Below, one piece after another: positions 14,868 to 50,928 of a DNA stretch of 64,000 nucleotides. The notes beneath the pieces were generated by a model. It had not been told where the DNA came from. It saw only the letters and a list, made by a program, of their open reading frames with translations, and searched no databases. The position numbers and the translations under genes are program-made. The stretch spans positions 208,030 to 272,029 of the forward strand of contig LBVU01000004.1 in NCBI GenBank assembly GCA_000993205.1, read 5' to 3'. How positions within the stretch are numbered: the first letter of the stretch is position 1; every line of letters begins with the position of its first letter. Origin of the DNA: Candidatus Woesebacteria bacterium GW2011_GWB1_39_10. GTDB taxonomy: Bacteria; Patescibacteriota; Microgenomatia; UBA8517.

Positions 14868-16349
14868 TTATCTGTTAAAAATCGTCTTAAAGCTCTTTTT
14901 GGCATCTTCAATAAGAGATAGCCCCATCATTGAAATCATGGAGGTTGCATAGATCGCCATTCCCGTAACTATCAAAATTTCCATGGAAACCAGACTCGTT
15001 GGTAAAAATCCTCGCAACATCAATAGGACAGCTCCCATAACAACTGCTCCTACTGCGGGCTTAATCATTGAGTCTGTTATTGAAAAATTAATGTATTTCT
15101 TAGTGATAAAAATTGCGACGACGGAGGATGCCCCTACCAATGAATAACCGATAGCAGCCCCGACAACATCAAATTTTATCGCAAGAACGGGTACAAGGGC
15201 CCAGGTAAGGGCTGTCCACATAACCATTAAATAGAATGTAATCTTGATTTTACCAATGGCATTTAACAAATTTGTAAGCTGCGTTGTCGCTGCTGCAAAT
15301 ACAAAATTAATCGATATAAAAATAATGGGAACAAGCGCCGGAATCCATTGACTATATCTGGGGATCACACGAACCAATATTGGCGCCAGAATTGAAATTC
15401 CGACAAGGCTAGGAAACACTAAGAAACAAATAAAAAAAACGGACCGCGTAACACTTCGTTCAAGATCAGCCTTTGCATCCTGCATACGCGAAAATGCGGG
15501 AAAGGTGACCCTGGTTACCGTATCCATAAAAAATGTCAGGGGAAGCCGGGAAATTTTTTGAGCAAAAGACAGAATTCCTACACCTGCCGGTCCAAGTATT
15601 CCACCCAGAACCAATGTCATTCCGTCATCCTTAAAGGTGGCCAGAAAAGTGTTGATTTGATAAGGAATTCCAAATTTAAAAAGCCCACTTAATGTCTTCC
15701 TTGAAAAAGCTACGCCCGGAATCCATGGCTGAAGTGTATAAATTGCAATAACACCGATAACTCCGCGTAAAAGTATCGCATATGTAAAACTCATGAGTCC
15801 AAACCCTTTCATTGCCAATAAAACCAATACAACGTTATAAACAACTTGTTCCAAAATTTGGGGAAATACAAGTTTTACAAATTCAAGTTTCCGTTCCAAA
15901 AGTACCGACGGAATGCTTTTCAGAGACGAAAAAAGAAGAGATACGCTTAATGCATACAAAAGGATTCGTCCATCCCAGTTAAGCGAATATTTCTGAACAA
16001 AAAAAGGTGCTAACAAAAAGACGGCTATAATAATCGAAAGTACAAGCAATTGTTGAACAAAAAATGTTGTCTTTAAATCAGAATCTGTGGGTTTGTCCTT
16101 TTTTTGAATAAGGGCTGCAGCCAAACCAATATCTGAAAAATAGACAAGAAAATTTATTATTGCGCTGACTATTGCGAAAACTCCAAATTCGTATTTACCT
16201 AAATACGCAAACAGAAACAATTGGGCAACAAGCCCTATTATCTGAAGCAGGAATGTTCTCCCGGTCAAAACAACAATACCCCGTACGGAACGCTCTTTGA
16301 CGGTTTCCAAAGAGATTTCAGTAGTTGGATCTAAATGTTCACCTTCCAT
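14868..16349 (-). CDS. Wzx-like oligosaccharide flippase (MOP superfamily polysaccharide biosynthesis protein)
   Basis: 493 aa with 12-14 TM helices, located within the glycosyltransferase operon. Confidence 0.6.
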   Translation of the reverse strand: MEGEHLDPTTEISLETVKERSVRGIVVLTGRTFLLQIIGLVAQLFLFAYLGKYEFGVFAIVSAIINFLVYFSDIGLAAALIQKKDKPTDSDLKTTFFVQQLLVLSIIIAVFLLAPFFVQKYSLNWDGRILLYALSVSLLFSSLKSIPSVLLERKLEFVKLVFPQILEQVVYNVVLVLLAMKGFGLMSFTYAILLRGVIGVIAIYTLQPWIPGVAFSRKTLSGLFKFGIPYQINTFLATFKDDGMTLVLGGILGPAGVGILSFAQKISRLPLTFFMDTVTRVTFPAFSRMQDAKADLERSVTRSVFFICFLVFPSLVGISILAPILVRVIPRYSQWIPALVPIIFISINFVFAAATTQLTNLLNAIGKIKITFYLMVMWTALTWALVPVLAIKFDVVGAAIGYSLVGASSVVAIFITKKYINFSITDSMIKPAVGAVVMGAVLLMLRGFLPTSLVSMEILIVTGMAIYATSMISMMGLSLIEDAKKSFKTIFNR

Positions 16350-25150: not shown

Positions 25151-26120
25151 ATTTTCTGGCAGTCTCCAAAACTTTAATTACAGCCTGGTCATATGGCATA
25201 TAAAGACGTGCAGCCGACGCTGACTTGTGTCCCCCTCCGCCTAATTTCTCTGCGATTTTCGAAACATCGAAATCATTTCTCGACCTAAAACTAACTGAGC
25301 AGAAGTTATCGAACTGTTCGAGAACAAAACCGAAATCCGTATTTTCAATGGATTGGATAAACGATCCTGCTATATAACTTTTTGCATCCCTGCTTCCGGG
25401 ATAATTTTTTGTGAGATCTTTAGGAACAGCCACCCAAGCGAACCTTGCGTCTTCCTCAACGACAACTTTAGTTAACATTTCTCCCATCAAATGTATTTCA
25501 TCAATAGGACGCGACATGTAAAGATTAAAAAGAATGTTCCTTCTGTCTGCTCCATTTTTGACGAGAGTGTCTGCCATTGAAAATGCCGATTCTCCGATAA
25601 TGTCTGTCTGAAAAGACATTGTGTCCGCGATTATACCCGTCAATAGTGATGTGGCAAGATCTGTAGTTAATTCCAGTTTCCAATCCGAAAATATTTTAAA
25701 CAAAAGAGCGCAACACGAACCGGTTTTTTCATCGACCAGATTAATATCGCCTTCCTTTGTGTTTGTATAATGGTGATCTATCACCACTTTTCGTATTTTG
25801 GAAGACAAAATGTTGTCTTTTCCGGTTGTCTGGTTCCAATTGCCGGAATCGACTATCACAAAAGTGTCATATTGAGAAAAATCAAAATCGTCAAAATTTA
25901 CTACTTTTATTGATTTCGAATTTGGTAAAAATTTACAATTATCGGGAATCTCGTCGGGAGAAATAATAGTGACATCGTCTTTTCCCAGCTCTTTCAATGC
26001 AAGGGACATTGAGGTTGCGCTACCAATACTGTCCGGATCGGGACTTCTATGACAATTAACCAAAATTTTGTTGGCTTTTTTAATTTCCTCTAAAATATTT
26101 TTACTTTCTTTGTAATTCAT
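25134..26120 (-). CDS. nrnA: DHH-family phosphoesterase (NrnA-like oligoribonuclease/pAp phosphatase)
   Basis: DHH motif VVIDHHYTN and DHHA1 GGGGHKSASAA. Confidence 0.7.
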   Translation of the reverse strand: MNYKESKNILEEIKKANKILVNCHRSPDPDSIGSATSMSLALKELGKDDVTIISPDEIPDNCKFLPNSKSIKVVNFDDFDFSQYDTFVIVDSGNWNQTTGKDNILSSKIRKVVIDHHYTNTKEGDINLVDEKTGSCCALLFKIFSDWKLELTTDLATSLLTGIIADTMSFQTDIIGESAFSMADTLVKNGADRRNILFNLYMSRPIDEIHLMGEMLTKVVVEEDARFAWVAVPKDLTKNYPGSRDAKSYIAGSFIQSIENTDFGFVLEQFDNFCSVSFRSRNDFDVSKIAEKLGGGGHKSASAARLYMPYDQAVIKVLETARKYAKKD

Positions 26121-27736
26121 TCTACGTTTACGTGACCAAGTTTATAAAGCGTTCCCCCCCAGACCTCCCATCTATCCACTATTTTAGTCCATCCGAACCT
26201 GGTAATCCAGGCGGAAGGACTATGTGTCGGATCGCACTTAGATTCTTCAAACTCACAGACAACAAAGAGCTGATCTGTTTGTGTAAATTCGGAGGTAGAA
26301 GGGTCGGTGTCGACCACATTGGCCCCCCAAATAATCAAAAAGTAGAGATAAACACTTCGATCGTCAAAATCTGATATCGCAGCTAAATTAAATTTGGCCC
26401 CACCCGCCTTCTCCTGTATAACTTTTGCCACAGATATCGCCCTAGGCATTTGATATGTAGGGTGTACAAACGGAGGATCGTTTTGAAAACTAACAAAGAC
26501 AATAAAACCAATAGTCAAAGAAAGCAGTACTTTAGCTATCAAGTTTTTATTATTTAAAATTTTTTGAGCAAAAGTTCCTAATAATAAAAACGGCGCCGGA
26601 AACAAAAAACCAAGGTAATGATCATAAATCTGACCTTTATAATAGGCTGTTCCAATAAGACCTACTGTAATCCATAAAGATAAAAGGCCGTAAGCGTCTG
26701 TAAAAAGGTGTTTTTTATAAATCCAGACTAAAAATATTATTGAGACCAATACCGCCAAAATTCCCAAATACATATTTTTGCCCATGGGCAAATTTGTAAA
26801 AACCATAAGAGTTGTTGCGCCAATTTTTGATAAATAGGCTAAAAGCGGGAGGCCAACATCACGACTGGAAGTAAAAAATATTTTTATTGCATTATAATTT
26901 TGCCAATTATGACGGATATCAAAGATGAGAAGTGGTGACATTAGCAGAGCGAAGAGCGAAAAAGCTAAGAATGAAGAGCGGACAAATATCGCTTTAACAA
27001 GTTTGTCATTTTTAATTTTGAATAACGTTAATAACCAAAAAACAAAAAGAGTTGGGGCAAGGAAAAGACCTAGATAGTGCGACTGGAGAACAAAGGCGTA
27101 GGAAATCCCCAATGTTATCAGCCAACCTCCCACTCCGCGCGAGGCTCCGCGGGATTCGTATACTTTCCATATGGAATATATAGAAAGTAACGAAAAAAAG
27201 GGCATTATATTTGGATTCCAAGAAGATCTTGAAAATGTTATTACAGTCGGTGAAATTGCATAAAGCCCAGCTGCCACCAACGCACCTACGTTCAGAGAGA
27301 CTTGAATGCCTCCTGTAGTTTTAACCGGAAACCACTCCCGCGTGATAAACCAAACAAAAAAAACTGTTACAACGCCTAATAGCGCAATTTGAACTGCCGG
27401 TCCAACCGGTGAAAAGTTGGCAAGAAGTAAAGCCGGGGCCATCATATAGTAATAAAGCGGCCCCAAATACATATTTCCAACCGATGTGCCAGGTCCAATT
27501 AGAGGTGGGTGCAGCTCGGTGATAAATCTTCTAACTATAAGCACGTCCCGCCCTTCATCACTAAGAAACGTCATATAATCAGAAATTCTATACAATCTCA
27601 TGAATGCACCGACTAATAGAATTAATAATAAAATCAAAAATTCTTTTTTATTCAACAAAATCCACGATCGAATTTTAGAAACTGTTGACTGTTGACTGTT
27701 GACTGTTGACTGTTCGATCATTTGAGTTTTCTCCAA
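26117..27736 (-). CDS. ArnT/PMT-type (GT39-like) GT-C membrane glycosyltransferase; likely ATG start at 27721 followed immediately by a heptanucleotide repeat
   Basis: FLSDEGRDVLIVRRF motif with multiple TM helices. The ORF-track start at 27736 is a TTG codon. Confidence 0.55.
   Translation of the reverse strand: MEKTQMIEQSTVNSQQSTVSKIRSWILLNKKEFLILLLILLVGAFMRLYRISDYMTFLSDEGRDVLIVRRFITELHPPLIGPGTSVGNMYLGPLYYYMMAPALLLANFSPVGPAVQIALLGVVTVFFVWFITREWFPVKTTGGIQVSLNVGALVAAGLYAISPTVITFSRSSWNPNIMPFFSLLSIYSIWKVYESRGASRGVGGWLITLGISYAFVLQSHYLGLFLAPTLFVFWLLTLFKIKNDKLVKAIFVRSSFLAFSLFALLMSPLLIFDIRHNWQNYNAIKIFFTSSRDVGLPLLAYLSKIGATTLMVFTNLPMGKNMYLGILAVLVSIIFLVWIYKKHLFTDAYGLLSLWITVGLIGTAYYKGQIYDHYLGFLFPAPFLLLGTFAQKILNNKNLIAKVLLSLTIGFIVFVSFQNDPPFVHPTYQMPRAISVAKVIQEKAGGAKFNLAAISDFDDRSVYLYFLIIWGANVVDTDPSTSEFTQTDQLFVVCEFEESKCDPTHSPSAWITRFGWTKIVDRWEVWGGTLYKLGHVNVE
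27681..27715. repeat. heptanucleotide tandem repeat (ACTGTTG)x4 plus an imperfect fifth unit, i.e. (CAGTCAA)n on the coding strand, at codons 4-13 of gene 26117..27736
   Basis: Read directly: actgttgactgttgactgttgactgttgactgttc. Confidence 0.9.
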
Positions 27737-28428
27737 AGTCTAAAAAGATCTGTAAAACTTTTGATTATAACATCTATATTTCTTCCGGTTCCCTCTCCTT
27801 TAGTTCTCGGATAATGGGTGACAGGAATTTCCTCAATTTTAAATCCCGCTTTTTTGGCCTTGATCAGAAGTTCGCTGGAAATAAAAGCCCCGCGTTCACT
27901 TTCCAATTTTGAAATTTTGTCTAACACTTTTTTGGAAATCAATTTAAAACCACAATCAATATCGCGTACCGTAAGACCAAATAACAAATAAACCAAAAGC
28001 TCCCACAGTCTACTGGTAATTTTTTTTCCAAAATTTACTTTTCGTGATGTGTAATAACCTATGACTAGGTCTGCATTCGTGTTTTTCTGTTTTTCGATAA
28101 AATTTACGATTTCGGTAAAATCAAACTGACCATCAGAGTCAGTAAACGCAATCCATGAGAATCTTGAATTATAAAAACCGGATGCGAGTGCCGCCCCATA
28201 TCCTCTATTTTTTTCATTATCTATCAGTCGTACATTTTTATCGGATTTTGAAAATTCGAGAGCAACTTCCCGAGTTGAATCGGTTGAGCCGTCATTAACT
28301 ATCAGAAGTTCCCATTTTTCGGAGACAGATTTGAGTACTTCTGTTGTTTTAACAATAACCGGCCTTATATTTGATTCTTCATTGTAAGTTGGTAGAAAAA
28401 CCGATATTTCCTGAATTAGTTTAGCCAC
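27718..28428 (-). CDS. polyprenol-phosphate glycosyltransferase (GT2, Dpm1-like)
   Basis: SVFLPTYNEESNI..LIVNDGSTDST..FTDSDGQ. Confidence 0.7.
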   Translation of the reverse strand: MAKLIQEISVFLPTYNEESNIRPVIVKTTEVLKSVSEKWELLIVNDGSTDSTREVALEFSKSDKNVRLIDNEKNRGYGAALASGFYNSRFSWIAFTDSDGQFDFTEIVNFIEKQKNTNADLVIGYYTSRKVNFGKKITSRLWELLVYLLFGLTVRDIDCGFKLISKKVLDKISKLESERGAFISSELLIKAKKAGFKIEEIPVTHYPRTKGEGTGRNIDVIIKSFTDLFRLWRKLK

Positions 28429-28536: not shown

Positions 28537-29697
28537 ATGCATAAAAAATTCAAAAACTTGACTTTGATCTTGGTTTTTTCTCTCGTTCCAACTTTACTTA
28601 TCTGGCTTCCGTTCATATTCCGGGTAAATTCGTTCTGGAAAATTCCGCTTCCGCAAAACGGTTTGGCAACAATCGTCGCAAACTACGATGGTCCGCTATA
28701 TATGGTTGCAGCCAAAACTTTATATAACAAGACTGATATCCAATCTAACTTTCAGTTTCCCCTTCCAACAGAATATTACTCCGCACATTTTCCTCTCTTT
28801 CCGGTGTTAATTCGCTTGATTGGAACTGTGACAAACTACCCTTACGCTATGCTGATTGTAACCCTTTTGTCCGGAATCCTGGCAACTTTCTTTTTCTTTA
28901 AATTGGTTAGTCTTTATACGGATGAAAAAAGCGCGCTTTTTCTTACATTCTTATTTTCATTTTTTCCCGCCCGTTGGTTAATTGTAAAGTCGGTTGGTTC
29001 CGCCGACCCTCTGTTTATTGGAAGTATCATCGCATCCCTTTATTACTTTAAAAATAAAAAATATTTACTTGCCGGTGTTTGGGGGGCAATAGCGCAACTA
29101 ACCAAATCACCAGGAATCTTATTGTTCGCCTCTTACTTTGTATTTCTTTTATTTCCTTTTATACGAAATCAAATTAATGTAACCGGAAATAGACTTATTG
29201 AAAAACTGAATTTTAAAAAAACATATCCACTTCTCCTAATTCCATTGTCGTTAATTCTTGTTTTTATATTTTACGCATTTGCAACGGGGGACTTTTGGGC
29301 ATACTTCCATTCCGGAGACAATATTCATCTTATTTTTCCTCCTTTTTCTATATTTAATTATTCGGCACCGTGGGTGGGAACTAGCTGGTTGGAAGAAATA
29401 ATCTTTATTTACTTATTTGGAGCTATTGGAGTTTATAAACTTTTTGAAAAGAAAGAATATGAATTCGGAACGTTTGTCGGGATTTTCTACATTCTGAGCC
29501 TCTTTATAGCCCACAGAGATTTAATGAGATATTTTTTGCCCGTAATTCCTTTTCTTTTTGTAGCATTTTCTGACATTTTAATTAAAGGGGAATTTAAAAT
29601 TGCATTTGCAATAATAATAGTTCCTATATATCTTTTCTCGCTGGCCTTCCTAAGCCAAAACGTGATGCCCATCAGCAATTGGGGGCCATTTTTGTAG
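28537..29697 (+). CDS. polytopic membrane protein, possible GT-C-type glycosyltransferase
   Basis: 386 aa with about 11 TM helices and no soluble domains. Confidence 0.35.
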   Translation: MHKKFKNLTLILVFSLVPTLLIWLPFIFRVNSFWKIPLPQNGLATIVANYDGPLYMVAAKTLYNKTDIQSNFQFPLPTEYYSAHFPLFPVLIRLIGTVTNYPYAMLIVTLLSGILATFFFFKLVSLYTDEKSALFLTFLFSFFPARWLIVKSVGSADPLFIGSIIASLYYFKNKKYLLAGVWGAIAQLTKSPGILLFASYFVFLLFPFIRNQINVTGNRLIEKLNFKKTYPLLLIPLSLILVFIFYAFATGDFWAYFHSGDNIHLIFPPFSIFNYSAPWVGTSWLEEIIFIYLFGAIGVYKLFEKKEYEFGTFVGIFYILSLFIAHRDLMRYFLPVIPFLFVAFSDILIKGEFKIAFAIIIVPIYLFSLAFLSQNVMPISNWGPFL

Positions 29698-29704
29698 TTG
29701 AAAT

Positions 29705-32308
29705 TTACCAGCACCACCAGAGGAAACAGTGATTATTGCTTGGCTTTGGAGTTCCCACTTTCGCTTCAGGCTTCGTCGAGACCGGGCTGGTTGGTGGAGA
29801 TGTTTGAACAACAAATCTGTCTGAATGAAGCCGTGTTTGTGATGGGTATGTCAAAGCATACAAAGAAAAGTTTTTTGTTGTAGTGGAAACCATATTTTTG
29901 ATCCAGTCAACTACAATTGGAGTTTTAATTGTTTTCCATTTTTTAGATTCTGAATCAAAATATGAAACTTTTAAAACTGTAGGAGAAACTCCATTTAGTT
30001 TTGTTTTGTCATATGGCAGTTGTACTGTAAAAGGCTTGTCGGTTTTGTTAATAGGAAAACCATTAAAGGCAGAAACTGAGGAAATTTTAAAAATGTCAGA
30101 ATATGTATTTAATCCTTGACTCCAAGGGTATGGAATATTTGAAGTGTCTAAATCCTTCAGACCTTGCCTTTTTATTGTTACATACATATCATCATGACTA
30201 CTATATGAAGGAATTATTGTTCCTGCCCAGGAGTTATTAACAAAGGTTTGTAAAATTGAGGTATTTTTAGTGTAATTTGGTCCTGCATTGATACAGTATT
30301 TGTAATCTGCTTTACAATTAGAGTCAGATGATTCATTTTCAAAGCTTCCCACTTTGTAAACAATATAATGAGACTGGGGAGTATATGAACCATTGGTGTC
30401 GTATGCACGGACATATATTAAATGATTACCAGTTGATAAATTACTTATATCACAATCAAATTTGGTTGTTCCACTACAACTTGTCCAAGAAGTAGCTGGT
30501 TGATAATTATCATCAATACTATATTCAACTCCTGCAACAGCAGTTGTTGAGTTGGGTGCAGAAACTGTTCCACTTATTTTTACATTTGAAGTTAATGGAC
30601 TTGAAGTAACCGAAACATCAATAGTGTGGGGGAAATTATAAATTATGTAAAGAGAACCTGAATTGGTACGAGAGTTAAAACTTGCAGCACCAGCATCAAC
30701 TAAAATATCCATTTTACCGTTACCATATAAATTACCAACAGACAGCGCGTGACCCGAAAAAAAGCTTGAGGCTGTTGGACCATCGTATCGGATAGAATAA
30801 TTTGTGCCTGTTGCCAAATCGATATTATTTCCTGTCCCAGAATAACTAGCAATGAGTGAATCATAAATTACATAAAGGGACCCTGAATCGCTTCTACTAT
30901 TTTGGTCAGCCCGATATGCCACCACCAAAATATCATATATTCCGTTTGAATTATAATCAGTGGCCAGTAAAGAGAAATATCCGAGGCCATCACCTGCTAC
31001 GGCACCATCATAGCGGATAGAGTAATTTGTGCTTGTAGCTAAATCTATATTGTTGCCAGTTCCAGAATAACTAGCAATGAGTGCATTTTTGATGATATAG
31101 ATTGAACCTGAATCAGTTCTACTGTTATTGTCCTCTAAATAAGTTCCAATTAGTAAATCTTTTTTACCATCAATGTTTCCAGTTTTTAATGATCCAGACA
31201 GCTGATCATTAGCAATAGCACCGTCGTATCTTAAATTGTAGTTAGATGTTGTATTCATATCAACGATATTTCCAGTACCAGAGTAGTCATCAATCAATGA
31301 AGCATAGATTACATACACAGAACCGCTTCCAGTACGAGAGTTATAATCGGCTTGCCTTGCACCAATGATAAGATCTAATTTATTGTTATCGTTAAGATCG
31401 GAAACAACATCGTTGTGCCTACCAAAATTATCCCCCGTCGCAGCACCGTCGTATCTGATTGTAAAATTAGAAGTCGTTGCTAAATCAATAGTATTACCTG
31501 TTCCTAAGAGATTACCAAAGACTGTATTAGCGATATAATAGACTGAACCAGATTCATTTCTTGAATTATTGTCAGCAAAAACAGAAGCTAAAATTATATC
31601 CTGTTTATTATCGCCATCAATATCAAGATTCGTAGTATCTACACTTTTTGTTGATAAATTGTCACTAGCCGCAGCACCGTCGAAACGAATATTGAAGTTG
31701 TTTGAACTCGCAAGATCAATTGTATTACCCGTACCAGAATAATCATCAAGTAAGGTATCGTAGATTACAAATACAGACCCAGAGCCACTCCTAGAATTGT
31801 TATCTGATCCAATACTGGGGATAAGAAGGTCAAACTTTCCATTGCCATTTAAATCTTGAACAAAGACTCCTGCAGAAAAACCTAGCATATCGTTTGCTGC
31901 AGCACCATCGATACGAATGTTATAGTTATTTGGATTGGCTAAATCGATCGTATTGCCTGTACCGGTTAAGCCTTTCCATAGTGAACTATAAATTATATAT
32001 ATTGAGCCGGAATCTGCTCTTGAATTGTAGTCCGTCCAACGCGCACCAACGATGATATCTCTGTTCCCATCGTTATCTAGATCGACATTTGTCGCATTAG
32101 AATAAGTTAAAAGGTCAGAAGCATTGGCACCATCGATTCTAATGTTCCAATTCGTTGTCGTAGCCATATTGTAAGTAGTGGATGCCAGGATTTTAGAAGG
32201 AAAAACAAAGGAAGAAAAAAAAAGAAACAGGAAAATAAAGAAAAGAGATTTTACAAAACAGCGAAACTGTTTACTCTCTCTCTCTCTCTCTCTCTCTCTC
32301 GAAAACAC
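29705..32308 (-). CDS. secreted FG-GAP/VCBS-type repeat protein, predicted 7-bladed beta-propeller with Ca-binding loops plus C-terminal beta-rich domains; start codon GTG at 32308 (see SSR)
   Basis: Signal-peptide-like FIFLFLFFSSFVFPSKILA. There are seven roughly 60-aa repeats, each with a D-x-[DN]-x-[DN]-G-x-x-D loop (DLDNDGNRDIIVGA, DLNGNGKFDLLIPS, DIDGDNKQDIILAS, DLNDNNKLDLIIGA, NIDGKKDLLIGT, DYNSNGIYDILVVA, NLYGNGKMDILVDA). Each repeat is followed by NSR..SGS..Y-I-I/V-Y. Confidence 0.65.
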   Translation of the reverse strand: MFSRERERERESKQFRCFVKSLFFIFLFLFFSSFVFPSKILASTTYNMATTTNWNIRIDGANASDLLTYSNATNVDLDNDGNRDIIVGARWTDYNSRADSGSIYIIYSSLWKGLTGTGNTIDLANPNNYNIRIDGAAANDMLGFSAGVFVQDLNGNGKFDLLIPSIGSDNNSRSGSGSVFVIYDTLLDDYSGTGNTIDLASSNNFNIRFDGAAASDNLSTKSVDTTNLDIDGDNKQDIILASVFADNNSRNESGSVYYIANTVFGNLLGTGNTIDLATTSNFTIRYDGAATGDNFGRHNDVVSDLNDNNKLDLIIGARQADYNSRTGSGSVYVIYASLIDDYSGTGNIVDMNTTSNYNLRYDGAIANDQLSGSLKTGNIDGKKDLLIGTYLEDNNSRTDSGSIYIIKNALIASYSGTGNNIDLATSTNYSIRYDGAVAGDGLGYFSLLATDYNSNGIYDILVVAYRADQNSRSDSGSLYVIYDSLIASYSGTGNNIDLATGTNYSIRYDGPTASSFFSGHALSVGNLYGNGKMDILVDAGAASFNSRTNSGSLYIIYNFPHTIDVSVTSSPLTSNVKISGTVSAPNSTTAVAGVEYSIDDNYQPATSWTSCSGTTKFDCDISNLSTGNHLIYVRAYDTNGSYTPQSHYIVYKVGSFENESSDSNCKADYKYCINAGPNYTKNTSILQTFVNNSWAGTIIPSYSSHDDMYVTIKRQGLKDLDTSNIPYPWSQGLNTYSDIFKISSVSAFNGFPINKTDKPFTVQLPYDKTKLNGVSPTVLKVSYFDSESKKWKTIKTPIVVDWIKNMVSTTTKNFSLYALTYPSQTRLHSDRFVVQTSPPTSPVSTKPEAKVGTPKPSNNHCFLWWCW
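32274..32300. repeat. dinucleotide microsatellite (TC)13 (plus strand), i.e. (GA)13 on the coding strand, encoding (RE)n at codons 4-12 of the FG-GAP gene
   Basis: Read directly: ctctctctctctctctctctctctctc. Confidence 0.95.
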
Positions 32309-32455
32309 AGGTTAAATTTTGAAAATATTTCATATATCATACCCATTTTTGTTCTACCTTTGTAACCCTTCAAGATTGTAAAATTCTTCGCGGGTTGGTG
32401 CATCATCCATATTTTTAGTATACTCTTCACATCTTCCAGTTCAATAAGAATTATT

Positions 32456-33204
32456 ACCTTGCAAGGTTTCTCCTTACAAGGTAATATAAATTATGCCTGC
32501 AAGAAACTTAATAAGATTTGAGGGTGATGATTGTTACTATCACGTTTATAACCGTGGAGTTGAAAAGCGAATTATCTTTGAAGATGAACAGGACTACAAA
32601 GTCTTTTTAAATTATCTAAAAGAATATTTAAGCCCACCACCCGACCTCTCTAAAATAACAAAAACTTTTACCTTGCAAGGTTTCTCCTTTCAAGGTGTAC
32701 CACACCAGCCTAAAAACTATTTCGAGAAAGTTGAGCTTTTGGCATATTGCCTTATGCCTAATCATTTTCATCTATTTCTACACCAAAAGAATGAACATGA
32801 CATTGAAAAATTTATGCGATCGCTTTTAACCAGATATTCTATGTATTTTAACAAAAAATACGACCGTGTGGGTTCACTTTTTCAGGGACCATATAAATCT
32901 GCCATTGTGAGAGATGAATCATACTTTCTTCATTTAAGCAGATACATTCATTTGAATCCTTCTGAATATACAAAAGATTTAGTATCTGCATATTCTTCGT
33001 ATTCAGAATATTTGGGACTCAGAAAAACACCTTGGATACATCCAGAGAAAATATTATTTTTCTTTAAACAAGCAAGTAAAGATTTTATTCAAAAGGAAAA
33101 TAGTTACAAAAATTTTGTGAAGAATTATAAAATTGATAGCACTTCAATTCTGGAAAACCTTACGCTTGAATAACTAACCTTGAAGGGTCTCTCCTTACAA
33201 GGTA
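32456..33204 (+). mobile_element. RayT/IS200-like Y1 transposase gene bounded by direct copies of a 28-bp REP-like palindromic element
   Basis: Copies are ACCTTGCAAGGTTTCTCCTTACAAGGTA at 32456-32483 and ACCTTGAAGGGTCTCTCCTTACAAGGTA at 33177-33204, plus a third copy inside the ORF at 32670-32698. CCTTGCAAGG is itself palindromic. Confidence 0.65.
32493..33173 (+). CDS. IS200-like / REP-associated tyrosine transposase (Y1 HUH, TnpA_REP/RayT family)
   Basis: HUH motif LMPNHFHLFL, catalytic Tyr region RYIHLNPSEY and N-terminal YHVYNRG. The fold is shared with the second copy at 47792..48433. Confidence 0.75.
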   Translation: MPARNLIRFEGDDCYYHVYNRGVEKRIIFEDEQDYKVFLNYLKEYLSPPPDLSKITKTFTLQGFSFQGVPHQPKNYFEKVELLAYCLMPNHFHLFLHQKNEHDIEKFMRSLLTRYSMYFNKKYDRVGSLFQGPYKSAIVRDESYFLHLSRYIHLNPSEYTKDLVSAYSSYSEYLGLRKTPWIHPEKILFFFKQASKDFIQKENSYKNFVKNYKIDSTSILENLTLE

Positions 33205-33207
33205 GCC

Positions 33208-33654
33208 GTGGGTTTTGAGAAAAACTTCAGACTAACTTTGTATATGGGTCATGAAATTCCCCGTCATTGGAGACTGAATGCGCAGAGATACAGACTTACC
33301 GGCGAAGTGTGTAAAAACGGACACAAAGTTTTTCCGCCTCGTGATGTTTGCCCTGACTGTCACGGGGAGGCCCACATTCCCTTCACTTTGAGTGGCAGAG
33401 GCGAGATTTATTCATCAACGGTAATGTATGAACCACCGGCTGGTTTTGAAGGGTCCGTCCCATACCAAGTCGCCTTAGTCAAACTAGAGGAAGGACCAAT
33501 GATAACCGCCCAATTAACAGATCTGGCCAGTGCCAATGTTCCCTTAGAAATTGGGGCCAAGGTGGAAATGGTCACAAGAAAATTGAAAGAGGATGGTGGG
33601 GCTGGTTTAATATATTACGGGTATAAATTCAGAATTCCAGTTAATGCTTCTTAA
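33208..33654 (+). CDS. Zn-ribbon plus OB-fold protein (DUF35-like); probable start is the ATG at 33244
   Basis: CKNGHKVFPPRDVCPDCHG is a 4-Cys rubredoxin-like ribbon, followed by a beta-rich OB-like region. GC content is about 47%, well above the local background. Confidence 0.45.
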   Translation: MGFEKNFRLTLYMGHEIPRHWRLNAQRYRLTGEVCKNGHKVFPPRDVCPDCHGEAHIPFTLSGRGEIYSSTVMYEPPAGFEGSVPYQVALVKLEEGPMITAQLTDLASANVPLEIGAKVEMVTRKLKEDGGAGLIYYGYKFRIPVNAS

Positions 33655-34795
33655 AGAATTTGGGCATGTGCCATGTTCGCCAGATGAATAAATTATAGAC
33701 AGTGTAATTGTAAGGTAAAACAACGGCAAATAAAGCAAACAACAGTGCCCCAAGATGAACCAACGGGCTATCTCCGAAAAGTTTAGCTGCCCCTGATACT
33801 ATAAATGGCTGAACGATAACTGCAAATAGGGATGAAAAATTAAACTTAAAAAACTGAACAAAAATATCTGACACTTTTGTAATAATTTTGTCTTTGAATG
33901 TCCAAATATTATTAAAAATAAAGTTAGAAATAATCGCAGCCTCTGTGGCAAGAAGTGTGGCGACAAAAGTTGTAAATCCAAAACGTTTCAAAACCTCCAA
34001 GCCTACATAATTAACAACAAATCCTGTCCCTCCTACAACTCCAAATTTAATAAATCTTTGCTTGTCTTTTATTCCCAAAATTACGGCAACGGTGAAAGTC
34101 GCAACCATTTCTTTCCAATTAAACTTTGATTTCTCTTTAGTTCTTGCCGCAAACTCGAGCGGAACTTCAACAATCTTTTTAGAATTTTTAAGACATTGAT
34201 ATAAAAGATCGACTTTGTAAGCAAAGCGGTCCAGATCCATTAGTTTTTCGAGGTTAATTTTATCGAGAACCCCATTAACCCGTGATAACCTAAAACCGGT
34301 AGTCAAATCGTGAACTTTAAAATTAAGTAGAACAATCCGAATAAATAAATTGCCAAAAAAACTGACCGCCTTTCTGCTTATTGCCCACTCAGACGGAACG
34401 GAACCTCCTTTGATATATCTGGATCCTATTGCATAATCGGCGCCGGATAAGTATGCCTCAACCATTGGTCTTACAAACCTTGGAGGATGTTGAAAGTCCG
34501 CGTCCATTTCCAAAATCGCATCTGCGTGAAGTTTGTTCATTGCATACTGCATTCCCCGAACATATGCCCATCCCAAGCCTTCTTTTTCTTTTTGAAGAAT
34601 ATGGAGATTTTTGTGATGATTCATTAAATTTTTAACTACGTCCCCGGTTCCGTCCGGAGAAAAATCATCAACCACTAAAAGGTGCATTTCTACCCCATCA
34701 ATTTTTGGAAACTCCTTAGAAAAAAGCTCATGAACCATAAGAGCTATATTCTGAGCTTCGTTATACGCGGGCATGACTATGACAACTTTGTCCAT
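33641..34795 (-). CDS. polyprenol-phosphate glycosyltransferase (GT2) fused to a C-terminal GtrA-like 4-TM domain
   Basis: VVIVMPAYNEAQNI..LLVVDDFSPDGT..EMDADFQ. The C-terminal GVVGGTGFVVNYVGLEVL and TM helices match GtrA. Confidence 0.7.
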   Translation of the reverse strand: MDKVVIVMPAYNEAQNIALMVHELFSKEFPKIDGVEMHLLVVDDFSPDGTGDVVKNLMNHHKNLHILQKEKEGLGWAYVRGMQYAMNKLHADAILEMDADFQHPPRFVRPMVEAYLSGADYAIGSRYIKGGSVPSEWAISRKAVSFFGNLFIRIVLLNFKVHDLTTGFRLSRVNGVLDKINLEKLMDLDRFAYKVDLLYQCLKNSKKIVEVPLEFAARTKEKSKFNWKEMVATFTVAVILGIKDKQRFIKFGVVGGTGFVVNYVGLEVLKRFGFTTFVATLLATEAAIISNFIFNNIWTFKDKIITKVSDIFVQFFKFNFSSLFAVIVQPFIVSGAAKLFGDSPLVHLGALLFALFAVVLPYNYTVYNLFIWRTWHMPKFFKKH

Positions 34796-36993: not shown

Positions 36994-38919
36994 TTAATCG
37001 TTTTTTTTGTTATTCGTAGAAAAGTTTATCGTATAAATTCCGGAAAGAGTTAATCTCGACATTGCAGACAAGAAATATGAATCATCGCACTTACTTACTA
37101 TTTCGCTTACTTCACCAACTGGCCAAAGAACTATTCCCTCATTTTCTTCAAGTTTTTCTCCTGTCTGCACCTCCGGATAAATTCCGCGCCCAAAATCTAC
37201 TATAACCGCATACAAATTAGGATGGTTATTAGTCATTCCGGAATCGGGCGCAACTCGACCAAGACTTATTATTTCATTTAAAGTGATGTTTGGGTTGTGA
37301 ACATTCAAACCCAGATCTTTTTTAAGCGACCTAAGAATGAAGTTTAAAACGCTCTCGTTAAGCCTGGGGAAACCACCCGCCAAATTATACTCAATTGAGC
37401 CAGTAGGAAATTTACCTTCCCTTTGGAACGCAAAATGAGTTATTTCCCCATTCCTCCTAATCAAAACCAGCAGTTTTGCCCCAGACTTCGGACCCCAACC
37501 CCAAGAATAATATCCCTCCGACCTTCTCTCGCCTTTAGAATTCTCCACCACAAACCATGTTGCAATACCGTAAATTCCAAACTCGGGAGAGGCGTGATCG
37601 ATTTTTACCAATTTAAGCAGAGTATCTTCACCTATTTTATCTTCATGACTTGAAAGGTCTTCAACGTAACCAAAAGTTGCAGGACTTATTGCCAGCGCTT
37701 TTATCTCATCTTTTATGTTGTCCAAACTGTTCTGATACCACTTTTTAGACGCGAGATTTTTCATAACCATTTCATAACGAACAATATTAGCTTCAACAAA
37801 ATGCTCTTTGAGATCGCTTTTCGGAATTTTTATTCCTTCTTTTTCTTCAAGTTTTCCGAATATAAACTTAGTTTTCCCCGTCTCTCTATCCAATGTTATA
37901 AAAGCGCTAACTATTTTATCTTCATCCGAAATAACTGCGCGTCTCTTAAGAAGCGGTCTCCACCAATCCTGATTATTTTTGTACCAATCAATAGTTTCTT
38001 TTAGACCATCGTCAAAATTTTCCCTGCCGATTTCCGGTTTCCAACCCAATTCCTGAATTATCTTTGTGGCATCTATTGCATATCTTCTGTCGTTGCTGTG
38101 CCTGTCCGGAACGTGTCTGATCTTTCCGGCATCTTCACCGTAAATAGAAACAATTTTTTCTGCAATATAATTGTTATCCCTATCGTTATCGGAACCTATT
38201 AAATACGTTTGACCTTTTTTACCTTTTTGAAGGATTAAATCGATCGCGTATGCATGATCTTTCGTATGGATCCAATCACGTACATTACGACCATCGCCAT
38301 GGATTGGAACCTGAATACCGTCAATTAAATTGGCAATAACTATTGGCATAAATTTTTCCGGGAATTGATAGGGACCATAATTATTTGAACAATTAGAAAT
38401 TGTTGTAAACATATCGGTTTTTTTGTAAAAATCCAAAACGAGCTTGTCTGCTTCGGCTTTACTTAAGGCGTAAAGATTGTCGGGACGCGGGGAGTATGGT
38501 GTTTTTTCGTTAAATTTTTCGCTGGATAATAGAGGAAGTTCGCCATAAACTTCATCTGTAGAAATATGATGAAATCTGGGGATGCCTAATTTATGCGCTT
38601 CTTCCAAAAGAGTTACCGTACCGTGAACATTAGTCTGCCAATATCTACTGGGGTCGAAGATGCTTCTGTCTACGTGGCTTTCTGCAGCAAAATGGACAAC
38701 AGTGTCGACACCTTTCATTGCCTGCGAGACTTTGGGGCGGTCGTTAATATCGGCCTCGATAAATTTAATTTTCTTAATGACTGGAGCAAGATTTTCGATA
38801 TTGCCGGCATAGGTTAATGAATCAATAACGCGTATTTCGTCTTTGGGATATTTATGATTCCAATAATGAACAAAATTTGCCCCGATAAAACCCGCAGCTC
38901 CTGTAACAAGTAACTTCAT
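36994..38919 (-). CDS. rfbB: dTDP-glucose 4,6-dehydratase fused to a roughly 300-aa C-terminal Nudix-like domain with degenerate catalytic box
   Basis: The N-terminal 330 aa (MKLLVTGAAGFIGANFVHYW..YAGN..YALSKAEAD) is typical RmlB. The C-terminus has LAGGFPRLNESVLNFILRSLKKDLGL, which resembles a Nudix box (Gx5Ex7REUxEExGU) with RE and EE replaced by RS and KD. Confidence 0.65.
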   Translation of the reverse strand: MKLLVTGAAGFIGANFVHYWNHKYPKDEIRVIDSLTYAGNIENLAPVIKKIKFIEADINDRPKVSQAMKGVDTVVHFAAESHVDRSIFDPSRYWQTNVHGTVTLLEEAHKLGIPRFHHISTDEVYGELPLLSSEKFNEKTPYSPRPDNLYALSKAEADKLVLDFYKKTDMFTTISNCSNNYGPYQFPEKFMPIVIANLIDGIQVPIHGDGRNVRDWIHTKDHAYAIDLILQKGKKGQTYLIGSDNDRDNNYIAEKIVSIYGEDAGKIRHVPDRHSNDRRYAIDATKIIQELGWKPEIGRENFDDGLKETIDWYKNNQDWWRPLLKRRAVISDEDKIVSAFITLDRETGKTKFIFGKLEEKEGIKIPKSDLKEHFVEANIVRYEMVMKNLASKKWYQNSLDNIKDEIKALAISPATFGYVEDLSSHEDKIGEDTLLKLVKIDHASPEFGIYGIATWFVVENSKGERRSEGYYSWGWGPKSGAKLLVLIRRNGEITHFAFQREGKFPTGSIEYNLAGGFPRLNESVLNFILRSLKKDLGLNVHNPNITLNEIISLGRVAPDSGMTNNHPNLYAVIVDFGRGIYPEVQTGEKLEENEGIVLWPVGEVSEIVSKCDDSYFLSAMSRLTLSGIYTINFSTNNKKND

Positions 38920-49980: not shown

Positions 49981-50901
49981 TTAAGGTGCCGCTGTCGGGG
50001 TGGCCGGGAAGAGTTCCTGGTCCTGACCAGATTCGATGATCTGCTGAGTATCAGCGCCAACAATACTGCGGGTCATGTACTCAAGGGCCGCATAGCGGGT
50101 CATACGACATTCGCCGTTGCCGCCGTTGGCCGCAGGATTCCAGGTGCTCTCGTAAAGACGGGCAAGGGCTGATTCATGGCCAGTGAACTTCAGTTTGGAC
50201 GAGTAAGAGATGTTCTGCATAAACTCGCCACTGATGTAATATTGACACAGGTTCTTATCACCATGGCTTACCCACAGGTTCGCTGTCGGGAGCCAGCTCC
50301 AATCGGAAACACCGACGCCATTGTCTGCCAATTTCTGGTAGACCAGCGTGGTATCGCCGTAGGTCTGCATGAGGTCGTTCATAAAATCGACCTCGGGGAA
50401 GGAACTAGTGTAGTTCATGTAGTCCGTAGCGGCCTCAAACGCCATGAGATTGGCATTCTGTACAGCGGCGCGGTTAGCGACGATGTAATCGGCAAGCTGG
50501 CGGAAAATCTGTGTGCATTCGGTCGTGGCTTGTTCGCCGGAGACGCTGTTTGTGACAAGCGCTGAGAAGATGGCATCGCCATCCATATTACCGGTAACTG
50601 CATTGCCGATCGTTGACTCAGTCGAAGCGACGCTTGCAGAGCATGCATTGGCCGCACCGAACAAATCCTTACCGCCGAGACGGAAGGTGTTCAACGAAAG
50701 TTCATATTTCCGCCACAGAACAGTAATGCTGGTCTCACGATCAACTCCGCCCTTGTAGTACGTCCGCGCCTGAGCCAAAATCGCAACAGGATCGAGTTTT
50801 GGCAAAGCCGGAACCGTGTCCTGAGGAGCCTTAGTCCCGCACGCAGACAAAACGAACATTGCCAGCAAAAACAGGGAAACGATTCTTTTAGTGACGTTCA
50901 T
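49981..50901 (-). CDS. predicted lipoprotein, unknown function; foreign cassette
   Basis: Signal peptide with lipobox LSAC-G, and SD AAAGGAGAAAAACCAATG. Confidence 0.45.
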   Translation of the reverse strand: MNVTKRIVSLFLLAMFVLSACGTKAPQDTVPALPKLDPVAILAQARTYYKGGVDRETSITVLWRKYELSLNTFRLGGKDLFGAANACSASVASTESTIGNAVTGNMDGDAIFSALVTNSVSGEQATTECTQIFRQLADYIVANRAAVQNANLMAFEAATDYMNYTSSFPEVDFMNDLMQTYGDTTLVYQKLADNGVGVSDWSWLPTANLWVSHGDKNLCQYYISGEFMQNISYSSKLKFTGHESALARLYESTWNPAANGGNGECRMTRYAALEYMTRSIVGADTQQIIESGQDQELFPATPTAAP

Positions 50902-50928
50902 TGGTTTTTCTCCTTTGTTGAAATGTAT

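What the first reader, a model, noticed from the sequence alone, without database searches (positions are those of the whole stretch)
29705..32308. Large secreted 7-bladed FG-GAP/VCBS beta-propeller protein with Ca-binding loops (adhesin-like)
There are seven tandem modules, each with a D-x-D/N-x-D/N-G-x-x-D calcium-loop and a conserved NSR..SGS..Y-I-I-Y strand. This is the signature of integrin-alpha-type FG-GAP propellers. About 300 aa of beta-rich C-terminal domains follow, ending CFLWWCW, with no TM anchor. It is the only large surface protein in the window and carries the phase-variable SSR. For an organism with reduced metabolism, such a protein is a candidate for host-cell or surface attachment.
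Basis: partly seen in the sequence, partly recalled or inferred. Interest (0 to 1): 0.55.

Follow-up and report, generated by a model that had tools for sequence, protein, structure and literature searches.

The report
Phase-variable integrin-like surface propeller, odd tail
This is a real but already annotated integrin-like seven-bladed propeller protein of a tiny groundwater bacterium; its new features are a slippery DNA repeat that can switch it on or off and an undescribed nine-residue Cys/Trp tail, shared with ammonia-oxidising archaea, that probably tethers it to the cell surface.

Summary
The ORF at 29705-32308 (-) is real. It is 100% identical to GenBank 'FG-GAP repeat protein' of Woesebacteria/Microgenomates MAGs. 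Pfam finds 7 FG-GAP repeats. AlphaFold2 (pLDDT 87) gives a propeller plus Ig-like domain, and its best PDB matches are integrin-alpha headpieces (E 1e-18). Five of the seven Ca-loops are canonical. The family is large, with 5,256 cluster representatives.

Two things are less ordinary.
- **The C-terminal tail.** The ending CFLWWCW belongs to a conserved tail, K-x-C-F-L-[WF]-[WI]-C-W-COOH. It is always terminal and follows a Pro/Thr-rich stalk. It occurs on 18 of 190 homologues and on 56 exported proteins with unrelated domains in Patescibacteria and in Nitrosopumilaceae archaea. No Pfam or NCBIfam model covers it, and no paper in the searched library contains the motif. Sister proteins carry a TM helix, an amphipathic helix or a wall-binding domain at the same position, so I infer an anchor.
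- **The (GA)13.5 tract.** It lies in the leader-coding region. It measures 25 nt in one other assembly and 27 nt here. Two paralogues in another MAG have a GA tract at the same spot. The upstream ATG frame, conserved in those paralogues, is out of frame here, so this allele is probably OFF or low.

Adhesin function remains an inference.

The parts
29705..32308 (-). ORF as called (GTG start), 867 aa. It is identical to GenBank KKQ91875.1/KKR27032.1 'FG-GAP repeat protein'.
32274..32300 (-). (GA)13.5 simple-sequence repeat, 27 nt, encoding RERERERE in the leader. One other assembly of the same organism has 25 nt.
32338..32360 (-). Probable native start region: AAGG (32360-32357), then ATG 32346-32344 and ATG 32340-32338. 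These are in a different frame from the body in this 27-nt allele and in frame in the 25-nt allele. The peptide of this frame (..IFSKFNLCF-RERE) resembles the in-frame leader of paralogue L085 (..VLSKFSLNL-RERE).
32183..32308 (-). Signal peptide, residues 1-42: basic n-region, h-region LFFIFLFLFFSSFVF, c-region PSKILA, predicted cleavage ILA|STTY. This 105-nt stretch is 69-80% identical at DNA level to two paralogues that are otherwise about 50% identical.
30641..32179 (-). Seven-bladed FG-GAP beta-propeller, residues 44-556, with seven 75-aa units; 5 canonical and 2 degenerate Ca-binding loops.
30350..30625 (-). Ig-like beta-sandwich, residues 562-653, in the position of the integrin 'thigh' domain. 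W608, C611, C619, R634 and D637 are conserved.
30257..30349 (-). Ser/Asn-rich linker, residues 654-684, with a C-x6-C loop (C665-C672, CKADYKYC-INAGP). AlphaFold2 confidence is low here.
29843..30256 (-). Beta-sandwich domain, residues 685-822, with no Pfam family. The fold weakly resembles ZU5 / GAIN subdomain B.
29738..29842 (-). Pro/Thr/Ser/Lys-rich disordered stalk, residues 823-857.
29708..29737 (-). C-terminal tail NNH-CFLWWCW-COOH, residues 858-867 (core 29708-29728). It is a member of the conserved K-x-C-F-L-[WF]-[WIV]-C-W terminal motif.

Best explanation
The gene encodes a Sec-exported, cell-surface ligand-binding protein. A Ca2+-loaded, integrin-alpha-like seven-bladed propeller 'head' sits on an Ig-like domain, a ZU5/GAIN-like beta-sandwich and a Pro/Thr-rich stalk.

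Shown by tools:
- the architecture, the predicted fold and the membership of a large Patescibacteria family;
- the conservation of the tail, its strictly terminal position and its occurrence on unrelated exported proteins;
- the SSR length difference between assemblies.

Inferred:
1. After signal-peptidase cleavage (ILA|STTY) the protein stays tethered to the outer face of the cytoplasmic membrane through its last nine residues. These form a Lys-preceded, probably disulfide-stapled (C861-C866) Trp/Phe-rich mini-hairpin that partitions into the membrane interface (about -7.7 kcal/mol on the Wimley-White scale). It needs no TM helix and no lipid-modifying enzyme.
2. Slippage of the (GA)n tract in the leader-coding region shifts the frame between the native ATG (32346/32340) and the body. 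This switches production on and off, as the CTCTT repeats do in Neisseria opa leaders. The 27-nt allele in this window is the OFF or low state: only an SD-less GTG is in frame. The 25-nt allele is ON.
3. The head binds a ligand, either a host-cell or mineral-surface glycan or a protein. This is the weakest step.
For: Fold and family:
- Pfam FG-GAP x7.
- AlphaFold2 pLDDT 86.7, with the propeller above 90.
- Foldseek hits to integrin alpha5/alphaV/alpha4/alphaIIb, E 1e-18; profile against PDB sequences, integrins at E 1e-10.
- 5,256 cluster representatives at E<=1e-3 and 484 at E<=1e-30.

Export:
- The h-region and the A-x-A-like site are conserved in homologues.
- The mature protein has six Cys in three local pairs, 611/619, 665/672 and 861/866, as expected for an oxidised extracytoplasmic protein.

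Anchor slot:
- Of 120 homologues, 16 end C-x4-C-W, 22 end in a TM helix plus KR tail, and at least 19 end in an amphipathic helix. Others carry PG_binding_1, SLH or LysM.
- P0002 has an 80%-identical propeller and ends in FN3 + LysM + a TM anchor.

Tail:
- In the set not selected by the search pattern: K-9 14/16, C-7 16/16, F-6 14/16, L-5 14/16, C-2 16/16, W-1 15/16.
- It is never internal, 0 of 190 proteins.
- In the species-representative genomes, 56 long exported ORFs carry it on FN3, FG-GAP, NHL, GLUG, BNR/sortilin, subtilase, cadherin-like and other domains.
- It is multi-copy per genome: 4 in MAG FK_Sedi_B_Bin.317.
- No recurrent neighbouring gene was found, which fits a self-sufficient tail.
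- AlphaFold2 draws residues 861-866 as a two-strand hairpin.

SSR:
- 27 nt here and in L002-L004, 25 nt in L001, with identical flanks. The 25-nt allele puts the upstream ATG in frame (P0124).
- In 430 kb of other loci the only dinucleotide tracts of 6 or more units are (GA)12 and (GA)7. Both lie at the same leader position of two paralogous FG-GAP/CxxxxCW genes, and both are in frame with an upstream ATG.
- The signal-peptide cassette is 69-80% identical at nucleotide level, against about 50% for the rest of the gene.
Against: - No experiment and no ligand are known. FG-GAP propellers also occur in enzymes and lectins, so 'adhesin' is not proven.
- The tail model has low confidence (pLDDT about 55). 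The disulfide and the membrane insertion are inferred only.
- A processing enzyme encoded elsewhere in the genome cannot be excluded, because only 8-kb flanks were examined.
- SSR length variation rests on one variant assembly out of five and could be an assembly artefact.
- The GTG start could be functional, which would make the 27-nt allele ON.
- Two of the seven Ca-loops are degenerate, and metal binding is untested.
- The lifestyle of Woesebacteria (host-attached or free-living) is unknown.
Confidence: 0.55

Rival explanations
1. The tail is a sorting signal for a dedicated, still unidentified enzyme, analogous to sortase, exosortase or archaeosortase or to CaaX-type Cys lipidation. That enzyme would cleave or modify the tail and attach the protein covalently to lipid, cell wall or S-layer. 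The peptide would not be the anchor itself.
For: - The motif is extremely constrained, with invariant C-x4-C-W at the exact C-terminus and a preceding Lys. This looks more like a recognition site than a generic hydrophobic patch.
- It marks many unrelated exported proteins per genome, as known sorting signals do.
- It is shared by two very distant lineages.
Against: - It lacks the TM helix plus basic cluster that all known sortase-type signals use to pause the substrate in the membrane.
- No gene recurs next to tail-bearing genes in 54 loci.
- No NCBIfam sorting-signal model matches.
Confidence: 0.25
2. The protein is a released or wall-associated glycan-binding lectin or carbohydrate-active protein, acting in nutrient scavenging or in handling the cell's own surface glycan. 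It is not a host adhesin. The tail would mediate protein-protein docking, for example a disulfide to an S-layer or pilus partner.
For: - The gene sits at the edge of a large glycan-biosynthesis cluster with at least 8 GT-C (PMT_2/PMT/YfhO/PTPS_related) paralogues, GT2s, a flippase and a sugar epimerase.
- From general knowledge, integrin-like FG-GAP propellers include a fungal GlcNAc lectin (PVL) and PL11 lyases.
Against: - No catalytic domain was detected.
- The best fold matches are integrins, not lyases.
- The neighbourhood is not conserved around homologues in other genomes.
- Homologues with TM or amphipathic-helix ends argue for membrane tethering.
Confidence: 0.15
3. The locus is a decaying or silent gene in this population. 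The ORF is kept open only by a fortuitous GTG, the GA tract is neutral slippage-prone DNA, and no regulated switching occurs.
For: - The upstream ATG frame, conserved in the paralogues, is out of frame in 4 of 5 assemblies.
- No Shine-Dalgarno-like sequence precedes the GTG.
Against: - The 2.6-kb body is intact and identical across assemblies.
- GA tracts occur at the homologous position in two paralogues of another genome, both in frame.
- The leader cassette is more conserved than the mature protein.
- The 25-nt allele restores the frame exactly.
Confidence: 0.05

Closest known systems
Integrin alpha subunits (FG-GAP seven-bladed propeller plus thigh domain)
   Same: - Seven FG-GAP blades.
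- D-x-D/N-x-D/N-G-x-x-D Ca2+ loops on the lower face.
- The propeller is followed directly by an Ig-like domain.
- Best sequence-profile and fold matches.
   Different: - About 12% identity.
- Blades are 75 aa long, with an extra GTGNxIDL strand and a short helix.
- Ca-loops occur in 5 blades, not 3-4.
- There are no calf domains, no TM helix, no GFFKR motif and no beta-subunit partner nearby.
- It is bacterial, with a C-terminal CxxxxCW tail.
Patescibacteria 'FG-GAP repeat protein' family (GenBank annotations of Woese-, Roizman- and Campbellbacteria MAGs)
   Same: - The protein is 100% identical to KKQ91875.1/KKR27032.1.
- Hundreds of homologues are 35-50% identical and share the same 75-aa repeat and the YNFPHT boundary.
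   Different: No family member has been studied. This member combines the leader SSR, the ZU5/GAIN-like domain and the CxxxxCW tail.
Neisseria opa genes (CTCTT repeats in the signal-peptide-coding region); Mycoplasma vlp/vlhA contingency loci
   Same: - An SSR whose unit is not a multiple of 3 lies inside the leader-coding region of a surface protein.
- Copy number decides whether the start codon is in frame.
- The leader cassette is conserved among divergent paralogues.
   Different: - The unit here is a GA dinucleotide.
- The organism is an uncultured CPR bacterium.
- All three frames have some start codon upstream of the tract.
- Switching was not observed directly.
C-terminal membrane anchors without a TM helix (amphipathic helices of E. 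coli PBP5/6; Trp-rich interfacial peptides such as indolicidin/tritrpticin; polybasic plus lipid tails of Ras)
   Same: - The element is short, terminal, preceded by basic residues and rich in aromatic residues.
- Its calculated interfacial free energy is about that of a myristoyl group.
- It is interchangeable with amphipathic-helix tails in sister proteins.
   Different: - It is only 7 hydrophobic residues long.
- It has an invariant C-x4-C pair.
- It is not helical in the model.
- No family or motif entry exists for it.
Sortase/exosortase/archaeosortase-type C-terminal sorting signals (LPXTG, PEP-CTERM, PGF-CTERM, and similar)
   Same: - It is a C-terminal tag after a low-complexity stalk.
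- It sits on many unrelated exported proteins in one genome.
   Different: - It has no signature-TM-basic tripartite structure.
- There is no LPXTG-like site.
- No known model hits it.
- No linked enzyme gene was found.

Membership tests
FG-GAP repeat proteins (Pfam PF01839 / integrin-alpha propeller superfamily) | Multiple FG-GAP repeats scoring above the Pfam gathering threshold | tested here: met
   7 stretches, 91.4 bits against a 22.1-bit cut-off, E 2.6e-26. FG-GAP_2 also scores above its cut-off.
FG-GAP repeat proteins (Pfam PF01839 / integrin-alpha propeller superfamily) | Seven repeats folding into a seven-bladed beta-propeller | tested here: met
   The AlphaFold2 model has pLDDT above 90 over residues 44-556, with seven repeated 4-strand units. 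Foldseek gives prob 1.0 to integrin-alpha propellers. This is a prediction, not an experimental structure.
FG-GAP repeat proteins (Pfam PF01839 / integrin-alpha propeller superfamily) | Ca2+-binding D-x-D/N-x-D/N-G-x-x-D loops | tested here: met
   The motif is present in repeats 1-4 and 6 and degenerate in repeats 5 and 7. Metal binding itself cannot be tested here.
Bona fide integrin alpha chain | Thigh + calf-1 + calf-2 legs, a single C-terminal TM helix with a GFFKR-type cytoplasmic motif, and pairing with a beta subunit | tested here: not met
   Only one Ig-like domain follows the propeller. There is no TM helix (max KD19 of the last 60 aa is -0.1). No VWA/beta-I protein lies among the neighbours.
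VCBS / FG-GAP_3 (PF13517) | Match to PF13517 | tested here: not met
   PF13517 is absent at E<=1 for this protein. It is present in many homologues.
SSR contingency (phase-variable) locus | A perfect tract, with a unit not divisible by 3, inside the 5' coding region or promoter of a surface-protein gene | tested here: met
   (GA)13.5, 100% perfect, lies in the leader codons.
SSR contingency (phase-variable) locus | Tract length differs between otherwise identical natural sequences and changes the reading frame | tested here: met
   25 nt in L001 against 27 nt in the window and L002-L004, with identical flanks. The called proteins differ accordingly. Only one variant assembly was found. Two metagenome scans for more alleles found nothing.
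SSR contingency (phase-variable) locus | Reversible ON/OFF expression | not testable with these tools
   This needs read-level allele counts, proteomics or a cultured strain.
LPXTG/sortase substrates | LPXTG-like motif + hydrophobic helix + basic tail | tested here: not met
   A regular-expression search finds no LPxTG-like site. There is no C-terminal helix.
Known -CTERM sorting domains (PEP-, PGF-, GlyGly-, MYXO-CTERM and similar) as modelled in NCBIfam | Match to a curated sorting-signal model | tested here: not met
   NCBIfam gives 0 families for this protein at E<=1. No model is shared among the 56 tail-bearing proteins.
Bacterial lipoproteins | Lipobox [LVI][ASTVI][GAS]C at the signal-peptide cleavage site | tested here: not met
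   There is no lipobox in the first 60 residues. The predicted cleavage site is ILA|S.
ZU5 / GAIN-B beta-sandwich (for residues 685-822) | Significant fold match, and an autoproteolytic H-[LF]-[ST] site where relevant | tested here: inconclusive

The most novel reading that the evidence does not exclude
K-x-C-F-L-[WF]-[WIV]-C-W-COOH is a previously undescribed C-terminal surface-retention signal. It is shared across domains of life, by Patescibacteria (mainly Microgenomates lineages) and by Nitrosopumilaceae archaea. It tags dozens of unrelated exported propeller, FN3 and protease proteins. It works without a transmembrane segment, either as a disulfide-stapled Trp-rich interfacial membrane anchor or as the substrate of an unknown sorting enzyme. 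In this gene it is combined with opa-like GA-repeat phase variation, which would be a documented contingency locus in a CPR bacterium.
Probability: 0.4. Interest if true: 0.75.

Novelty: new variant of a known kind. Interest (0 to 1): 0.5.

Why it matters
- **The propeller is routine.** It is an annotated member of a very large family.
- **Surface tethering in CPR bacteria is an open question.** These ultrasmall, probably episymbiotic organisms have few recognisable anchoring systems. How they keep big binding proteins on their surface, and vary them, is unknown. A 9-residue anchor that needs no enzyme, or a new sorting signal, would explain the tethering for a whole class of their surface proteins.
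- **The archaeal link makes it testable.** The same tail occurs in Nitrosopumilaceae, a family with cultured members, so the idea could be tested if a cultured strain carries it.
- **The GA tract suggests contingency-type phase variation.** The mechanism is classic for host-adapted pathogens and mycoplasmas. Here it would operate in groundwater CPR bacteria, which supports the view that this protein faces a changing partner or predator (host, phage or grazer).

Tried and rejected
1. NCBIfam on the protein and on 56 tail-bearing proteins gave no sorting-signal model.
2. Literature search for the motif strings found 0 papers. 'FG-GAP' with Patescibacteria or CPR gave 0 and 1 passing mentions. 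'Phase variation' with CPR gave nothing on SSR switches. Sortase/anchor terms gave nothing relevant.
3. I looked for a conserved partner gene by clustering all ORFs of 80 aa or more in 54 tail-bearing loci. None recurred apart from local synteny in the thaumarchaeal loci.
4. A protein-database search with a 12-column tail profile was not possible, because max_evalue is capped at 10 and a motif this short cannot reach that.
5. Two metagenome-contig scans, one for the SSR plus leader cassette and one for this locus's SSR flank, found 0 matches. No further alleles could be obtained.
6. The contig of P0002, the 80%-identical relative, has no DNA on file.
8. A lipoprotein or LPXTG reading was rejected.
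9. An rRNA or other known RNA explanation for the GC-rich parts of the window was rejected, because Rfam finds nothing at gathering scores.
10. About 45 of the 108 pattern matches in genome contigs are short chance ORFs in unrelated taxa and were discarded.
11. The promoter and terminator consensus scan around the gene was no better than shuffled sequence.
Full report

Yes. The ORF listing returns an 867-aa ORF at exactly 29705..32308 on the minus strand. Splitting it at the N-[WYF]-x-[ILV]-R strand gives seven units of about 75 aa, starting at residues 53, 128, 204, 281, 356, 428 and 503. The units are 39-58% identical to each other (mean 48%). Each carries N-S-R...S-G-S-x-Y-x-I.

The Ca-loop pattern D-x-[DN]-x-[DN]-[GN]-x-x-D is present in repeats 1-4 and 6. 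Repeats 5 and 7 are degenerate. The protein ends ...NNHCFLWWCW. A perfect (GA)13.5 tract of 27 nt lies at 32274-32300, inside codons 3-12.

**2. What is it?**

*Family.*
- Pfam FG-GAP matches seven stretches (E 2.6e-26), and FG-GAP_2 is above its cut-off. VCBS/FG-GAP_3 does not hit. NCBIfam gives nothing.
- The protein is 100% identical to GenBank KKQ91875.1/KKR27032.1. These are annotated 'FG-GAP repeat protein' in Microgenomates group bacterium GW2011_GWC1_39_7b and Candidatus Woesebacteria bacterium GW2011_GWB1_39_10. The window therefore comes from a CPR (Patescibacteria) MAG, and the basic annotation already exists.
- An exhaustive HMMER search of 1.84 billion cluster representatives finds 5,256 relatives at E<=1e-3 and 484 at E<=1e-30.

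*Structure.* AlphaFold2 with a 112-sequence alignment gives pLDDT 86.7 and pTM 0.76. The model divides as follows:

| Residues | Element | Confidence |
|---|---|---|
| 44-556 | seven repeated four-strand units (propeller) | pLDDT above 90 |
| 562-653 | Ig-like sandwich | high |
| 656-685 | linker | disordered |
| 685-822 | second beta-sandwich | high |
| 825-854 | stalk | disordered |
| 861-866 | two-strand mini-hairpin | pLDDT about 55 |

- Foldseek against the PDB puts integrin alpha5, alphaV, alpha4 and alphaIIb headpieces on top (E 1e-18, prob 1.0, TM on target about 0.52).
- A family profile also finds integrin alpha chains by sequence, at their Ca-binding blades (E 1e-10).
- The second sandwich was modelled alone at pLDDT 85. 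It has no Pfam family and only weak fold matches to ZU5 and GAIN subdomain B (E 2.5e-3 to 1e-2, TMq 0.41-0.50).

**3. Export and cysteines**

The N-terminus has a basic n-region and a 15-residue Phe/Leu core (KD19 maximum 2.3). The c-region is PSKILA|STTY. Homologues show V-L-A|A, S-L-A|V or S-F-A|T at the aligned place. There is no lipobox and no LPXTG-like site.

The mature chain has exactly six cysteines, arranged in three local pairs: 611/619, 665/672 and 861/866. This fits an oxidised extracytoplasmic protein.

**4. The tail is the unexpected part**

Among the 120 best homologues:
- 16 end in [K]-x-C-[FI]-[LIW]-x-x-C-[WF] directly at the C-terminus after a Pro/Thr/Ser/Lys stalk. Some of these have different middle domains.
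- 22 end in a TM helix plus a KR tail.
- At least 19 end in a short amphipathic helix, for example TFWQKLLKYIQKIIH.
- Others carry PG_binding_1, SLH or LysM.

P0002 has a propeller 80% identical to the query and ends in FN3 + LysM + a TM anchor. The C-terminal slot of this family is therefore an envelope-attachment slot, and the tail is one of its interchangeable fillers. Over 190 homologues the motif is terminal 18 times and internal 0 times.

*Across genomes.* I scanned one genome per species (185,579 species) for K-x-C-F-L-[WFC]-x-C-W-stop. This gave 108 matches.
- About 45 are chance matches in ORFs of 9-50 aa in unrelated taxa.
- 56 end long ORFs (up to 1,665 aa). Most of those with a complete 5' end begin with a signal-peptide-like N-terminus, by my reading of the first 45 residues.
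- Their domains are diverse: fn3 in 27, FG-GAP in 9, NHL in 6, GLUG in 6, sortilin/BNR in 5. Big_13, laminin-G, subtilase, cadherin-like and LVIVD also occur.
- The hosts named as Patescibacteria are Woese-, Shapiro-, Levyi-, Roizman-, Gottesman- and Collierbacteria and one Parcubacteria MAG. Many further tail-bearing loci come from ENA MAGs titled 'uncultured Gammaproteobacteria' or 'Pseudomonadales'. One of these (L033) is the 950-kb contig that carries homologue P0011.
- About ten matches are in Nitrosopumilaceae/Thaumarchaeota genomes, including complete chromosomes. There the tail sits on FG-GAP, NHL, FN3 and transthyretin-like proteins and on a conserved 127-131-aa protein.
- One MAG (FK_Sedi_B_Bin.317) has four tail-bearing genes.

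*Is it known?* No NCBIfam model is shared by these proteins. No paper in the searched library contains the motif. No gene recurs next to them.

*Energetics.* The seven core residues sum to -7.7 kcal/mol on the Wimley-White interfacial scale. The mean for the last seven residues of the other homologues is +0.4.

My reading, which is an inference: a Lys-flanked, disulfide-stapled Trp/Phe hairpin that sticks in the membrane interface. The main rival is a recognition tag for an unknown sorting enzyme.

**5. The SSR and the true start**

*Frames in the window.* Upstream of the tract each of the three frames has a start codon:
- ATG 32346/32340, preceded by AAGG;
- ATG 32333;
- GTG 32308.

Only the SD-less GTG is in frame with the body in this 27-nt allele.

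*Variation between assemblies.* The 90%-identity cluster of this protein contains gene calls of 820, 857, 867 and 907 aa.
- The 907-aa call comes from another assembly of the same aquifer organism (L001). Its tract is 25 nt with identical flanks, and the upstream ATG frame then reads through.
- L002-L004 have 27 nt.

*Paralogues in another genome.* In the 54 tail-bearing loci from other genomes (430 kb), the only dinucleotide tracts of six or more units are (GA)12 and (GA)7.
- Both lie at the same leader position of two paralogous FG-GAP/CxxxxCW genes of MAG FK_Sedi_B_Bin.317.
- Both are in frame with an upstream ATG.
- The leader peptide of the window's ATG frame (..IFSKFNLCF-RERE) resembles that of L085 (..VLSKFSLNL-RERE).
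- The 105 nt after the tract, which encode the signal peptide, are 69-80% identical between these genes. The rest of the genes is about 50% identical.

I conclude that the ATG is the native start. The tract then behaves like the CTCTT repeats in Neisseria opa leaders, and the allele in the window is probably OFF or low. The weak point is that only one variant assembly exists. Two metagenome scans for more alleles found nothing.

**6. Context**

The gene lies at the edge of a glycan-assembly cluster. The cluster holds at least eight GT-C paralogues (PMT_2, PMT, YfhO, PTPS_related), GT2 enzymes, a GtrA fusion, a flippase and a sugar epimerase/dehydratase. An IS200-like Y1 transposase is divergent from the gene. 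O-glycosylation of the Ser/Thr/Pro stalk by these PMT-like enzymes is possible but untested.

**7. Verdict**

It matches an existing annotation and a very large family, so it is ordinary as stated. Adhesin function remains an inference from architecture, family expansion and the contingency-type SSR.

The added value lies in two points:
- the conserved, undescribed C-x4-C-W terminal motif, shared between Patescibacteria and ammonia-oxidising archaea;
- the evidence that the leader GA tract is a real, positionally conserved frame switch.

I rate the finding a new variant of a known kind, interest 0.5. There is a 0.4 chance that the tail is a truly new surface-retention signal, which would deserve about 0.75.

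Noticed in passing
window 27681-27714 (- strand: CAACAGT x4.9): A perfect heptanucleotide repeat begins three codons after an ATG (27722-27720) near the 5' end of the PMT-like GT-C glycosyltransferase ORF 26117-27736, which overlaps the end of the upstream GT2 gene. The unit is not divisible by 3, so this is a second candidate contingency locus. Copy number is the same in the window, L001 and L002; L003 is cut off by its contig end.
   Followed up: partly
window 6142-6175 (AAAAGTA x4.9): Another perfect heptanucleotide repeat lies inside the PTPS_related/GT-C membrane-protein ORF 5461-7113 (-). It is a possible third frame-switch tract.
   Followed up: no
window 3918-27736 (- strand): There is a run of at least eight GT-C paralogues (PMT_2, PMT, YfhO, PTPS_related), with a Polysacc_synt flippase within it at 14868-16349. 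GT2, GT2-GtrA and epimerase/dehydratase genes flank the run at 27718-28428, 33641-34795 and 36994-38919. This is a large surface-glycan or protein O-glycosylation cluster.
   Followed up: partly
window 49981-52896 (- strand), GC 0.52 against about 0.37 around the propeller gene: A GC-rich island encodes two lipoprotein-like ORFs. One is 306 aa with ...LSAC-GT. The other is 655 aa with ...VVLAC-GS and a C-terminal TM helix, and has no Pfam match. This is another large envelope protein, possibly acquired horizontally.
   Followed up: partly
window 32452-32486 and 32493-33173: A hairpin with a 15-bp stem (TATTACCTTGTAAGG...CCTTGCAAGGTAATA) lies directly upstream of a divergent IS200-like Y1 transposase gene. 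It sits between that gene and the propeller gene's leader.
   Followed up: no
L011, L024, L072, L084, L106 (Nitrosopumilaceae/Thaumarchaeota): A conserved small (127-131 aa) exported archaeal protein has a signal peptide and ends ...TEKTKFCFLWWCW. It has no significant Pfam family and lies in conserved local synteny.
   Followed up: partly
homologues P0006, P0008, P0012, P0044, P0118 and others: A second recurrent C-terminal module occurs in the family. After the stalk comes a 12-18-residue amphipathic helix of the type [ST]-[FLW]-[FW]-[QDE]-[KR]-[IL]-x-x-[FI]..., in at least 19 of 120 homologues.
   Followed up: partly
window residues 663-680 (nt about 30269-30322) and homologues P0007, P0016, P0025, P0092: A conserved motif N-C-x-x-[ND]-[YWF]-x-[YH]-C-[IL]-x-[AS]-G-P (a C-x6-C loop) lies between the Ig-like and beta-sandwich domains. 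AlphaFold2 leaves it unstructured.
   Followed up: no
L033 (with L005, L009, L013, L032 and others): L033 is titled 'uncultured Gammaproteobacteria' but is the 950-kb contig that carries homologue P0011. That suggests a mislabelled Patescibacteria genome. Other ENA MAGs titled 'uncultured Gammaproteobacteria/Pseudomonadales' also carry tail-bearing ORFs and may be mislabelled too; their taxonomy was not checked.
   Followed up: no
window 28537-29697 (+): A 386-aa polytopic membrane protein with no Pfam family is convergent with the propeller gene, and their stop codons are 8 nt apart. The pairing is conserved in all assemblies of this organism, but no such neighbour recurs beside tail-bearing genes in other genomes.
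   Followed up: partly
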